Below, piece after piece: positions 28,501 to 31,500 of a stretch of DNA of 64,000 nt. The DNA is from Escherichia coli (GTDB lineage Bacteria; Pseudomonadota; Gammaproteobacteria; Enterobacterales; Enterobacteriaceae), in NCBI RefSeq assembly GCF_029227855.1, contig NZ_CP074356.1; one strand, written 5' to 3'. Numbering within the stretch: position 1 is the first letter of the stretch; each line of letters starts with the position of its first letter. Position numbers: made by a program.

Positions 28501-31500
28501 GTGCTTTGTGCGGGCTATCAGGCGTTTTATTCTTACTCCGCACCGCATATGCGGGTGATGCGTGATCTGATAAAGCAGCATCGTTCTCCCATGGAGCTGA
28601 TGACGATGCTGCGGTGACGTGCGCTTAAACGGGCTGCCCCTGATGCGACATCCGCGTCGCCAGCGGCAGCCAGCACAGCACGATCAACAATCCCATTAAG
28701 GTCATCAACAACCCCAGGCTGCCCTGACCGGTTTGCGGCAACATCGCAGAGAGCGACGCCAGCACGCCGGAACCAATGTTTTGCAGACCGCCGACCAGCG
28801 CGCCAGCCGTGCCCGCCAGGAAGGGGAACGGCTCCATCGCGCCGCTGGTCGCCAGCGGAAACAGCATCCCGGCACCGAAAAAGAACAGCGCGGCGGGAAC
28901 GAGCAGCGTCCAGACATTCATCACGCCAAACCAGTCGGGGATCCACATCAGCAAGCCAGCCAGCAGGCAGCAGATAACCGACTGCCACATTAACGTGGAG
29001 AAGCGTTTATTGGGACGTCCGGCAAACCATGCGCCAAAAAACGCTGCCGGAATCGGCAGAATAAACAAAATACTGACCGTCATACTGCTCAGCCCTAACA
29101 CCGCGCCCATCAGCACGCCGGAGCAGGCTTCAAAGGCGGCAATCCCGGCCAGACCGCCAATCAGCATCAGCAAATAACAGTTAAAACCGCTGTTACCGAA
29201 AAGCGTTTTATAACTGGTAAGCAGGCGCGTGCGCGGTGCATCGACCGGACGCGTTTCCGGCATCCAGCGGGCCATACTGAAGGTCACACCAGCACAAAGA
29301 ACCAACAAAAAGAGATAACAGGCGCGCCAGTTCCACATCGTATCCAGCAGACCGCCGATTAGCGGTGCGAGCAACGGACTGACGAGAATCCCCATGTTTA
29401 ACAGGCTGTTAGCATGGCGCAACTGTGTCCGTTCATATAAATCTCGCGGCAAAGTACGCGCCATTACGCCGCCAACGCCGGTGCCCATCCCCTGCATCGC
29501 GCTGGCGGCAATCAACACCGTCAAACTGGAGGTCGTGACCGCGACCAGCGTTGCCAGCATAAAAATGGACATTCCGACGAGGATCACCGGTCGGCGGCCC
29601 ACGCGGTCGGAAATCGGGCCATAAAACAGCTGTGAGACACCGTAAGTCAGCAGATAAGCGCCCATTACGCTCTGCACCGCCCCTTCACGGACGTTGAGAT
29701 CGCGCGCCATATCGGCAATAGCTGGAATATAAATGGTTTGCGCCATCTGACCGACGGCCACGAGTAATACCAACATCAATAACAAATTGACGTTTCTTTG
29801 CCTTTTCATTATCACGGATGCTTTTATAAAAATAATTAGAATAAGTCACTACGCATTCCCATAAATGCGGGAGAGGAATCTATCACATTGATGAATGTTA
29901 GCCAGATATACGCCAGGAATGGGGAATTGTTTAGCGGCAGAATATGTAAACAAAAGCGGCAATAAATGTTGCCGGGAGGGATTACGTGCGAACTGTAACC
30001 CTCTCCCCAAAGGGGCGAGGGGGAAACCACCGTTCCCTTTCAGAAAATGAGCTAAACATTGCACGGGACGGTCCCCTCGCCCCTTTGGGGAGAGGGCTAG
30101 GGTGAGGGGCACAGGCAGCGCAGGTGCAAACATTCTGCTGGTAGAAGAAGCCCCCAACTCCAACCCGCACGCTAAATATAAAAGGGGAGCGGTTACCCGC
30201 TCCCCTTTGGTGCGACTTGAATCTGAATTACTTCAGGTATTTCAGAACAGCATCAAGCAGTTGCAGTGCTGCAACAATGAGTTTGAGGATAAGAATGGCG
30301 ATATCCACCAGGCTCATACGCGTCTCCTGTGGTTCAGGAGCACTGCCAGCTGACGTACCTTTCCGCTGCCTGTTGCCAGCTGTTGTGCACGCGGTATCTT
30401 AAGGAGAAACGTTGTGCTTGTTGACATAACACAGTGTGCTCACGCGGGGTTAAGGCGCTGACGGCACCACCCGTTTCAGCCAGGACTTAGTGCGCCGGGT
30501 AACGATGCGGCCCCCGCATAACACATTGCGTACAGTGATATTATAGAAGTTTACTGTATAAATAAACAGTAATATTTGGACAAAACGCAAACTGTGATCG
30601 ATACTCAACTATGCCCTAAATACGTCAAAATTCGTGCCGAAATTGCGCGTTCTGCGCGGAACACGTATACTTTCAGTGTTGACATAATACAGTGTGCTTT
30701 GCGGTTACCAGCCGCAGGCGGCTGATGAAACCTCGCTCCGCGGGGTTTTTTGTTATCTGCAATTCAGTACAAAACGTGATCAACCCCTCAATTTTCCCTT
30801 GCTGAAAAATTTTCCATTGTCTCCCCTGTAAAGCTGTGCTTGTATAAATATTGTTAAACACAAAACCAACAAGGTCCCCAATGACTACTTCCATGTTCAA
30901 CGCAAAACTACTACCAACTGCGCTATCCGCCGCAGTGGTCGTCGTGCGTGTGGTGGTGGTCGTCGGCAATGCGCCGTAGGGACTGGAACAACACACGATT
31001 CCAAAACCCCGCCGGCGCAAACCGGGCGGGGTTTTTCGTTTAAGCACCTCCCGGAAAGTCGGCCCAGAAGAAAAGGACTGGAGCATGGCAAGTTCGGGCA
31101 CAACATTGACGCGTAAGCGCTTTACCGGCGCAGAATTTATCGTTCATTTCCTGGAACAGCAGGGCATTAAGATTGTGACAGGCATTCCGGGCGGTTCTAT
31201 CCTGCCTGTTTACGATGCCTTAAGCCAAAGCACGCAAATCCGCCATATTCTGGCCCGTCATGAACAGGGCGCGGGCTTTATCGCTCAGGGAATGGCGCGC
31301 ACCGACGGTAAACCGGCGGTCTGTATGGCCTGTAGCGGACCGGGTGCGACTAACCTGGTGACCGCCATTGCCGATGCGCGGCTGGACTCCATCCCGCTGA
31401 TTTGCATCACCGGTCAGGTTCCCGCCTCGATGATCGGCACCGACGCCTTCCAGGAAGTGGACACCTACGGCATCTCTATCCCCATCACCAAACACAACTA

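What the first reader, a model, noticed from the sequence alone, without database searches (positions are those of the whole stretch)
30228..30752. tisB/istR toxin-antitoxin locus with LexA box and a 21-nt sRNA-target match
A 29-codon minus-strand ORF encoding TisB-like hydrophobic peptide, a consensus LexA box (tactgtataaataaacagta) and a plus-strand terminator-ended sRNA candidate sit between emrD and ivbL. The first 21 nt of the sRNA candidate (30677-30697) recur with one mismatch at 30420-30440, i.e. are complementary to the tisAB leader. The antisense pairing is therefore directly visible in the sequence.
Basis: partly seen in the sequence, partly recalled or inferred. Interest (0 to 1): 0.3.

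Follow-up and report, generated by a model that had tools for sequence, protein, structure and literature searches.

The report
Known E. coli tisB/istR-1 toxin-antitoxin locus
This is the well-studied E. coli tisB/istR-1 locus, where a DNA-damage-induced gene for a small membrane toxin is held in check by a divergently transcribed small antisense RNA; it is correctly identified but ordinary and already known.

Summary
Window 30100-30900 is 100% identical to many E. coli chromosomes, where RefSeq annotates tisB and ivbL, and about 98% identical to K-12 MG1655.

- **Toxin:** the 29-codon minus-strand ORF (30228-30317) is TisB (Pfam PF13939). It is the N2S form, which is published as the dominant E. 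coli variant.
- **Antitoxin RNA:** Rfam istR (RF01400) matches 30623-30751 (+) at 141.9 bits, against a threshold of 45.
- **LexA box:** it lies at 30552-30571 and has 2 mismatches to the perfect palindrome.
- **Repeat:** it is 22 nt long, 30419-30440 versus 30677-30698. Its single mismatch is a G·U wobble in the RNA duplex, so pairing is uninterrupted. No match appeared in 100 shuffles.
- **Position in the transcript:** published K-12 nucleotide identities fix the tisAB +1 at 30533. The target is then +94 to +115. This is inside the mapped transcript, on the standby site, and spans the +106 RNase III end.
- **Other species:** in 13 other enterobacterial loci with enough upstream DNA the 22-nt match recurs (20-22 identical positions). 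The 12 of these that extend far enough also have a 29-aa TisB ORF. All 14 loci have a LexA-type box and an istR match. There is one compensatory pair change.

There is nothing new here, so interest is low.

The parts
30181..30208 (-). tisAB intrinsic terminator: 12-bp G+C-rich stem, 4-nt loop, then a T-rich tail
   Evidence: A 359-nt transcript (PMC2577331) starting at +1 = 30533 would end near 30175.
30228..30317 (-). tisB coding sequence: 29 aa, TisB N2S variant, MSLVDIAILILKLIVAALQLLDAVLKYLK
   Evidence: ORF; Pfam PF13939, 37.6 bits against 25; RefSeq annotation of identical DNA, WP_000060506.1; PMC11264685 (N2S is the dominant variant).
30323..30328 (-). tisB Shine-Dalgarno AGGAGA, 5 nt upstream of the AUG; sequestered in structure in all three mRNA isoforms
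   Evidence: Read from the sequence. It is the RBS motif listed in PMC11264685. Predicted unpaired probability is 0.16-0.21.
30314..30427 (-). tisA, a 37-codon upstream ORF in the tisAB leader; probably not translated
   Evidence: Its AUG is ACG in 8 of 13 other enterobacterial loci and the frame is not conserved. PMC11264685 reports no experimental evidence of translation.
30419..30440 (-). IstR-1 target and single-stranded part of the ribosome standby site (+94 to +115 of tisAB mRNA); contains the +106 RNase III end (30428) and the tisA AUG
   Evidence: The identical 22-mer is published in PMC2577331. The standby region and the +106 end are described in PMC6690012.
30457..30484 (-). 5' stem-loop and pseudoknot element of the active +42 mRNA (+50 to +77); the +42 processing site is at 30492
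   Evidence: Published positions CC50/51, G54, C55, G57 and UCAGC 73-77 (PMC7708055) are reproduced with +1 = 30533. This stretch is identical to K-12.
30533..30545 (-). tisAB transcription start (+1 = 30533) and -10 box TATAAT (30540-30545)
   Evidence: The +1 is inferred from agreement with the published nucleotide numbering (PMC7708055). The -10 motif is as listed in PMC11264685.
30552..30571 (.). LexA (SOS) box TACTGTATAAATAAACAGTA, at -19 to -38 of tisAB and just upstream of the istR-2 -35 box
   Evidence: 2 mismatches to the palindrome, unique in 64 kb, 0 in shuffles. A CTG-N10-CAG box sits at the same relative place in all 14 related loci.
30577..30605 (+). istR-2 promoter: -35 TGGACA (30577-30582), 17-nt spacer, -10 GATACT (30600-30605)
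   Evidence: The same hexamers are listed for istR-2 in PMC11264685.
30613..30751 (+). IstR-2, the longer SOS-induced isoform (139 nt here, 140 nt in K-12)
   Evidence: K-12 annotation transferred through the alignment. Rfam RF01400 matches 30623-30751 at 141.9 bits.
30643..30671 (+). istR-1 constitutive promoter: -35 TTGCGC (30643-30648), 17-nt spacer, -10 TATACT (30666-30671)
   Evidence: Read from the sequence. The hexamers are identical to those listed for istR-1 in PMC11264685.
30678..30751 (+). IstR-1 antitoxin sRNA (74 nt here): single-stranded antisense 5' tail 30678-30698, internal stem-loop, Rho-independent terminator 30727-30751
   Evidence: fold. The K-12 RefSeq 5' end maps to 30680. 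Promoter geometry suggests 30678, as does a 75-nt IstR-1, a size I recall but did not verify.

Best explanation
This is the chromosomal tisB/istR-1 type I toxin-antitoxin module of Escherichia coli. It lies between emrD/ysdE and ivbL-ilvBN, and its regulatory sequence is essentially that of K-12.

How it works (steps shown experimentally in K-12, and transferred here because the sequence from the LexA box to the target is identical):
1. LexA bound at 30552-30571 represses the minus-strand tisAB promoter. DNA damage lifts that repression.
2. The primary +1 transcript, starting at 30533, cannot be translated. The tisB ribosome-binding site is buried in structure, and the 5' end pairs with the upstream single-stranded region.
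3. Removal of 41 nt gives the active +42 mRNA. A 5' stem-loop/pseudoknot plus a single-stranded stretch about 100 nt upstream of the tisB ribosome-binding site then act as a standby site, dependent on ribosomal protein S1, for the 30S subunit.
4. IstR-1 is made constitutively from the plus strand, starting near 30678. Its 5' 21-22 nt pair with +94 to +115 of the mRNA. This blocks standby binding and lets RNase III cut the duplex, leaving the inert +106 mRNA.
5. When SOS-induced tisAB mRNA outnumbers IstR-1, the 29-aa TisB peptide is made. It inserts into the inner membrane, collapses the proton motive force and ATP, and promotes dormancy and persistence.

IstR-2 is the longer, LexA-controlled isoform starting at 30613. 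It carries the same antisense stretch but is reported not to repress tisB.
For: **Identity**
- 100% identity to many E. coli chromosomes where tisB and ivbL are annotated.
- About 98% identity to K-12 over 721 nt, with no difference between the LexA box and the target.
- K-12 annotates IstR-1, IstR-2 and tisB at the aligned positions.

**Family models**
- Rfam istR: 141.9 bits against a gathering score of 45, full length.
- Pfam TisB_toxin: 37.6 bits against 25.

**Pairing**
- 22-nt repeat, unique in the window, 0 in 100 shuffles.
- 22 contiguous pairs including one G·U.
- Duplex of the 24-nt IstR-1 tail with tisAB mRNA is -37.0 kcal/mol. For 1000 shuffled tails the mean is -15.7, sd 2.2 and the minimum -25.2. 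The predicted site is +92 to +115.

**Numbering**
- With +1 = 30533, CC50/51, G54, C55, G57 and the stem-loop 50-64 of PMC7708055 are reproduced. The +106 end falls inside the duplex.

**Published agreement**
- The same 22-mer and a 359-nt transcript (PMC2577331).
- 21 nt of complementarity (PMC4147584).
- Standby mechanism, protein S1 and RNase III (PMC6690012, PMC7708055).
- Promoter hexamers, RBS and the N2S variant (PMC11264685).

**Comparative evidence**
- 14 enterobacterial loci from a genome scan all match Rfam istR.
- The 13 loci with enough upstream DNA have a 20-22 of 22 match 247-257 nt upstream.
- The 12 that extend far enough have a 29-aa TisB ORF, and all 14 have a CTG-N10-CAG box.
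- 96.4% of cells in the intermolecular helix form a standard pair, against 14-48% when the register is slid. One pair switches U-A to C-G in 4 distinct sequence types.
- The antisense 21 nt are more accessible in the IstR-1 fold than in the IstR-2 fold: mean unpaired probability 0.63 against 0.35.
Against: - Nothing contradicts the assignment.
- All functional steps (SOS induction, processing at +42, RNase III cleavage, toxicity) are inferred from K-12 experiments and were not tested on this strain.
- Covariation support is thin. 16 of 22 pairs never vary, and only one pair changes on both sides. The covariation score was reached by 11 of 500 shuffles.
- Several IstR tail positions were fixed by the search pattern used to collect the loci. 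Their constancy on the sRNA side is therefore partly by construction.
- Thermodynamic folding alone only weakly reproduces the published opening of the standby site in the +42 isoform: unpaired probability 0.47 against 0.38 in +1.
- The IstR-1 5' end differs by 2 nt between the RefSeq annotation and the promoter geometry.
Confidence: 0.97

Rival explanations
1. The 22-nt repeat is a chance or promoter-related duplication with no antisense role. It begins with TTGACA, the -35 consensus hexamer.
For: The repeat contains TTGACA. Short two-copy repeats are often chance matches.
Against: - No match in 100 shuffles of 64 kb, even allowing 3 mismatches.
- The match recurs at the same distance (247-257 nt) in 13 loci from other enterobacterial species and genera (including a second E. 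coli), while surrounding sequence diverges.
- One position changes on both sides and keeps the pair.
- The promoter scan places no promoter on either copy.
- The antisense role is shown experimentally in K-12 on identical sequence (PMC4147584, PMC6690012).
Confidence: 0.01
2. tisA is a translated leader ORF, and IstR-1 acts as Sok does on mok/hok: it blocks tisA initiation, and tisB depends on tisA through translational coupling. The tisA stop codon overlaps the tisB start codon.
For: The IstR-1 target covers the tisA AUG (30425-30427). The tisA stop overlaps the tisB AUG by 4 nt, 30314-30317. More than 99% of E. coli keep the 37-codon ORF (PMC11264685).
Against: - In 8 of 13 other loci the codon at the tisA start is ACG, and the downstream frame and length are not conserved (6-46 codons). 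TisB, the target and IstR are nevertheless conserved.
- The change that destroys the AUG is the same one that is compensated in IstR. Selection therefore acts on the pairing, not on the start codon.
- The literature reports no evidence that tisA is translated (PMC11264685) and shows a standby mechanism (PMC6690012).
Confidence: 0.02
3. IstR-2, not IstR-1, is the relevant antitoxin. Alternatively, the main role of the tisAB RNA is as an antisense regulator of uxaA and dinD rather than as a toxin mRNA.
For: IstR-2 contains the same 22 nt and is co-regulated by the same LexA box. The 20-nt uxaA and 16-nt dinD antisense segments described in PMC2577331 are intact, at 30489-30508 and 30248-30263.
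Against: - In the Rfam consensus structure, and in the fold here, the IstR-2 5' extension pairs with part of the antisense stretch (GUCAA with UUGAC). Accessibility drops from 0.63 to 0.35.
- PMC11264685 states that IstR-2 does not repress tisB translation.
- Neither uxaA nor dinD lies in the window, so those interactions could not be examined.
- TisB toxicity and its role in persisters are well documented (PMC2826370, PMC5668327).
Confidence: 0.02

Closest known systems
tisB/istR-1 of E. coli K-12 MG1655 (b4618 / b4616)
   Same: Same locus, same neighbours (emrD-ysdE ... ivbL-ilvBN), and same divergent, non-overlapping layout. The LexA box, all three promoters, the +1 to +133 leader, the 22-nt target and the IstR-1 antisense tail are identical.
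   Different: There are eight small differences in 721 nt:
- TisB N2S (30313).
- One base in the tisAB terminator loop (30195).
- One base in the leader / tisA (30400).
- One base near the IstR-2 5' end (30615).
- Two bases (30721, 30726) and a 1-nt deletion in the terminator loop of IstR.
- One base in ivbL (30896).

Downstream of the tisAB terminator, K-12 has a short REP-like stretch where the window has a palindromic repeat block of about 176 nt.
[quoted passage not shown]
   Same: [quoted passage not shown] The primary transcript is inactive and is activated by 5' processing. dinQ is also LexA-controlled (PMC5668327, PMC4147584).
   Different: The toxins and sRNAs are unrelated in sequence. 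AgrB acts by remodelling structure rather than by competing at a standby site (PMC5668327). Here the Pfam and Rfam matches are specifically to TisB and istR.
hok/sok (plasmid R1 and chromosomal copies)
   Same: A type I system with a processed mRNA, an antisense RNA, RNase III cleavage of the duplex, and an upstream ORF overlapping the toxin ORF.
   Different: - Sok overlaps its target in cis and blocks translation of mok, to which hok is coupled. IstR-1 is encoded in trans about 258 nt away and blocks a standby site.
- tisA is not conserved as an ORF.
- Activation of hok is by 3' processing, whereas tisB is activated by 5' processing (PMC5668327).

Membership tests
tisB/istR-1 type I toxin-antitoxin system | 29-aa hydrophobic toxin belonging to the TisB family | tested here: met
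   Pfam PF13939 at 37.6 bits against a cut-off of 25. One substitution (N2S) relative to K-12. RefSeq names the identical gene TisB.
tisB/istR-1 type I toxin-antitoxin system | IstR sRNA (sequence plus secondary structure) encoded divergently from tisAB and not overlapping it | tested here: met
   Rfam RF01400 at 141.9 bits against 45, model positions 1-130 of 130, at 30623-30751 (+). tisAB starts at 30533 on the minus strand, so the two genes do not overlap.
tisB/istR-1 type I toxin-antitoxin system | 21-22 nt of complementarity between the IstR-1 5' end and the tisAB leader about 100 nt upstream of the tisB ribosome-binding site | tested here: met
   22 contiguous pairs (one G·U) between 30677-30698 and 30419-30440, which is +94 to +115. 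The tisB SD is at +206. The 22-mer is identical to the one in PMC2577331.
tisB/istR-1 type I toxin-antitoxin system | LexA operator at the tisAB promoter (SOS control) | tested here: met
   The box at 30552-30571 has 2 mismatches to the perfect palindrome and lies at -19 to -38 of tisAB. It is identical to K-12. LexA binding itself was not tested.
tisB/istR-1 type I toxin-antitoxin system | Conserved chromosomal position between emrD and ivbL-ilvBN | tested here: met
   ORFs and annotation. ivbL matches Pfam PF08049.
tisB/istR-1 type I toxin-antitoxin system | Toxicity of TisB; repression by IstR-1 through standby-site occlusion and RNase III cleavage; activation by processing at +42 | not testable with these tools
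   Taken from K-12 experiments (PMC6690012, PMC7708055, PMC4147584, PMC2826370). Toxicity of the N2S variant is reported in PMC11264685. The regulatory sequence is identical to K-12.
hok/sok-type coupling (leader ORF required for toxin translation) | Conserved, translated upstream ORF to which the toxin ORF is coupled | tested here: not met
   The tisA start codon is ACG in 8 of 13 related loci, and the frame and length are not conserved.

The most novel reading that the evidence does not exclude
The C-to-U change in IstR-1 (30688) was seen here only in the two E. coli sequences examined. It puts a G·U wobble at mRNA +104, two nucleotides from the +106 RNase III end. All 12 non-E. coli loci examined have a G-C pair at that position. 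This could be a lineage-specific tuning of duplex stability or of cleavage, and hence of the threshold for TisB-dependent persistence. Nothing here tests that, and it may well be neutral.
Probability: 0.08. Interest if true: 0.15.

Novelty: already known. Interest (0 to 1): 0.05.

Why it matters
[quoted passage not shown] Finding it in this window adds nothing to that knowledge. It does confirm that the window is an E. coli chromosome segment carrying the common N2S TisB allele, and that the first-stage reader can recognise a type I toxin-antitoxin module from raw sequence. The small comparative survey gives a modest independent check of published conclusions: the antisense pairing is maintained across at least five genera, and tisA is not maintained as an ORF.

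Tried and rejected
- **Full-length duplex prediction.** RNAduplex with full-length IstR-1 against the whole tisAB mRNA gave an implausible interaction of 70 nt of IstR-1 with 112 nt of mRNA at -76.5 kcal/mol. The method ignores intramolecular structure. I replaced it with the 24-nt single-stranded tail and shuffled controls.\n- **Isoform accessibility.** Thermodynamic folding of the +1, +42 and +106 isoforms only weakly reproduces the published opening of the standby site. I do not use it as evidence.\n- **Covariation test of the intermolecular helix.** The helix is nearly invariant and has one compensatory pair. The result is supportive but weak, and the sRNA side is partly fixed by the search pattern.\n- **Chance hits.** Four of the 18 pattern hits (Agathobacter, two Meiothermus, Hymenobacter) have no istR match and no upstream repeat. 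I discarded them.\n- **Short locus.** L011 (Citrobacter amalonaticus) has too little upstream DNA to see the target.\n- **Palindromic block at 29983-30158.** I checked it against the TRIP1 repeat family. None of the mapped TRIP1 loci is at emrD-tisB, and the paper prints no sequence I could compare. Its identity is unresolved. It resembles G+C-rich intergenic repeats of E. coli that I recall as 'boxC', but that is from memory and untested.\n- **Rfam microRNA hits at 29991-30105.** These are below threshold and only reflect that palindrome.\n- **Exact IstR-1 5' end.** I could not find a primary statement of it. The original mapping papers (Vogel 2004, Darfeuille 2007) were not found in the searched library.
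Full report
**What is in the sequence**

Between the minus-strand emrD ORF (28625-29815) and the plus-strand ivbL-ilvB genes (30881-30979 and 31085-32773), the window holds these features:
- A 29-codon minus-strand ORF at 30228-30317, encoding MSLVDIAILILKLIVAALQLLDAVLKYLK.
- A 37-codon ORF at 30314-30427 that overlaps it by 4 nt.
- The 20-mer TACTGTATAAATAAACAGTA at 30552-30571. It differs at 2 positions from the perfect LexA palindrome and is the only such site in 64 kb; shuffles gave none.
- A plus-strand G+C-rich hairpin with a T-run at 30727-30751, and a minus-strand terminator at 30208-30181 just past the small ORF.
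- A direct repeat that is 22 nt long, not 21: 30419-30440 against 30677-30698, with 21 of 22 identical. Allowing up to 3 mismatches, these are the only two copies in the window on either strand, and none of 100 dinucleotide-preserving shuffles gave any.

The content is otherwise correct.

**What it is**

- Window 30100-30900 is 100% identical to many complete E. coli chromosomes, and 5420 of 5426 genomes have a match. RefSeq annotates 'type I toxin-antitoxin system toxin TisB' and ivbL under the match.
- Against K-12 MG1655 the region is about 98% identical. There is no difference anywhere between the LexA box and the repeat copy in the leader.
- K-12 annotates tisB, IstR-1 and IstR-2 at the aligned positions. 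Transferred to the window, IstR-2 is 30613-30751 and IstR-1 is 30680-30751.
- Rfam's istR model (RF01400) matches 30623-30751 (+) over its full length at 141.9 bits, against a gathering score of 45.
- The peptide matches Pfam TisB_toxin at 37.6 bits against 25, and the ivbL peptide matches IlvB_leader.
- The one amino-acid difference from K-12, N2S, has been described as the consensus TisB of E. coli. It is present in 85% of genomes and is toxic on overproduction (PMC11264685).
- The promoter hexamers that paper lists are all present:
  - istR-1: -35 TTGCGC (30643-30648) and -10 TATACT (30666-30671).
  - istR-2: TGGACA and GATACT (30577-30605), which the promoter scan also found.
  - tisAB: -10 TATAAT (30540-30545, minus strand).
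  - tisB RBS: AGGAGA (30323-30328, minus strand).

**Is the repeat inside the mapped transcript?**

I placed +1 at 30533, seven bases downstream of the -10 box, and checked it against nucleotide identities published for K-12 tisB mRNA. These are CC at 50/51, G54, C55, G57, a stem-loop at 50-64, and nucleotides 73-77 pairing with the loop (PMC7708055). All are reproduced. One small difference remains: the complementarity I see is 54-58 with 73-77, not 53-57.

With this numbering:
- The repeat copy in the leader is +94 to +115.
- The tisA AUG is at +107.
- The tisB SD is at +206 and the tisB AUG at +217.
- The +42 processing site is 30492.
- The +106 end left by RNase III is 30428, which is inside the duplex.

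The CLIP-defined single-stranded standby region is given as +85 to +111 (PMC6690012). The minus-strand 22-mer AGCACACTGTGTTATGTCAACA is exactly the sequence Weel-Sneve et al. report as antisense to istR, in a transcript of 359 nt (PMC2577331). From 30533 that transcript would end near 30175, just past the terminator. The refutation condition is not met.

**The pairing**

The sRNA is on the plus strand and the mRNA on the minus strand, so a direct DNA repeat means RNA complementarity. The single DNA mismatch (T at 30688, C at 30430) becomes a U·G wobble, so the duplex is 22 uninterrupted pairs.

The 24-nt 5' tail of IstR-1 is predicted to bind tisAB mRNA at +92 to +115 with -37.0 kcal/mol. For 1000 shuffled tails the mean is -15.7, the sd 2.2 and the best -25.2.

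Folded alone, IstR-1 has a free 5' end followed by two hairpins. In IstR-2, and in the Rfam consensus structure, the extra 5' sequence pairs with part of the antisense stretch. Mean unpaired probability is 0.63 for IstR-1 and 0.35 for IstR-2. This fits the report that IstR-2 does not repress tisB (PMC11264685).

**Related loci**

One scan of the species-representative genome collection, using a degenerate pattern from IstR-1, returned 18 stretches of DNA.
- Fourteen are from Enterobacteriaceae: Escherichia, Salmonella enterica subsp. arizonae and subsp. diarizonae, several Citrobacter, Pseudenterobacter, Siccibacter, Franconibacter and two unnamed genera. All 14 match Rfam istR above threshold.
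- The other four (Agathobacter, two Meiothermus, Hymenobacter) are chance hits with none of the other features.
- In the 13 loci with enough upstream DNA, the IstR tail has a 20-22 of 22 match 247-257 nt upstream.
- The 12 loci that extend far enough have a 29-aa TisB-like ORF on the opposite strand, and all 14 have a CTG-N10-CAG box about 113-124 nt upstream of IstR-1.
- Written as an intermolecular helix, 96.4% of cells form a standard pair, against 14-48% when the register is slid by 1-3 columns.
- 16 of 22 pairs never vary, three vary on one side to G·U, and one pair (mRNA +108 with IstR position 7, counted from G 30678) switches U-A to C-G in four distinct sequence types.

This is real but thin covariation: the score was reached by 11 of 500 shuffles. 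Six tail positions were also fixed by my search pattern, so constancy on the sRNA side is partly by construction. The mRNA side was not constrained.

The compensated change turns the tisA AUG into ACG. In 8 of 13 loci tisA has no AUG, and its frame and length are not kept. This argues that selection acts on the pairing and not on tisA coding. It also argues against a mok/hok-style coupling model.

**Mechanism**

The mechanism I commit to is the published one, given in the best explanation:
1. LexA represses tisAB.
2. The +1 mRNA is inert.
3. 5' processing gives the +42 mRNA, which has a standby site dependent on ribosomal protein S1.
4. Constitutive IstR-1 occludes that site, and RNase III cleaves the duplex to give the +106 mRNA.
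5. TisB is made when SOS-induced mRNA exceeds IstR-1. It depolarises the membrane and promotes persistence.

These steps come from PMC4147584, PMC6690012, PMC7708055, PMC5668327 and PMC2826370. Shown here are the sequence anatomy, the family membership, the pairing and its conservation. Every biochemical step is inferred from K-12 work on identical regulatory sequence.

**Verdict**

The locus is already known, and interest is very low.

Noticed in passing
window 29983-30158: Downstream of the tisAB terminator, about 176 nt replace a REP-like stretch of about 37 nt in K-12. The core is a 27-nt inverted repeat (29996-30022 and 30073-30099, 96% complementary, 50 nt apart). The full block is at this site in 1498 of 5426 E. 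coli genomes. Pieces occur at a median of 3 and up to 8 places per genome, so it is a dispersed intergenic palindromic repeat. It caused sub-threshold Rfam microRNA hits. It is not at any mapped TRIP1 locus, and its family was not established.
   Followed up: partly
window 30425-30427 (tisA start) and loci L005, L007, L012, L014-L017, L020: The tisA AUG is ACG in 8 of 13 other enterobacterial tisB/istR loci, and the downstream frame is not conserved. The substitution that removes the AUG is the one compensated in IstR in 6 of those 8 loci. tisA therefore looks like a by-product of the standby/target sequence rather than a gene.
   Followed up: yes
window 30688 / 30430: The two E. coli sequences examined (the window and strain E69) have U in IstR-1 where all 12 non-E. 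coli loci have C. This gives a G·U wobble at mRNA +104, two nucleotides from the +106 RNase III end. Papers describe the pairing as 'perfect'.
   Followed up: partly
window 30489-30508 (-) and 30248-30263 (-): The 20-nt and 16-nt segments of tisAB RNA reported as antisense to uxaA and dinD (PMC2577331) are intact here. Their target genes are not within the window, because each sequence occurs only once on either strand.
   Followed up: partly
window 29891-29965 (+): The small ORF ysdE (24 aa) is annotated in RefSeq between emrD and tisB, in both K-12 and the strain identical to the window. I did not examine it further.
   Followed up: no
window 30896 (ivbL): The ilvB leader peptide differs from K-12 at codon 6 (Phe here, Leu in K-12; T against C in the alignment). 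The Val-rich attenuator stretch is unchanged within the aligned part.
   Followed up: no
window 30517-30528 and 30425-30436: A second short direct repeat, CATAACACATTG / CATAACACAGTG, lies at the 5' end of the +1 tisAB mRNA and within the target. In the predicted +1 fold, the 5' end (+3 to +20) pairs with +85 to +103. This is consistent with the published idea that the 5' 41 nt sequester the standby site until processing.
   Followed up: partly
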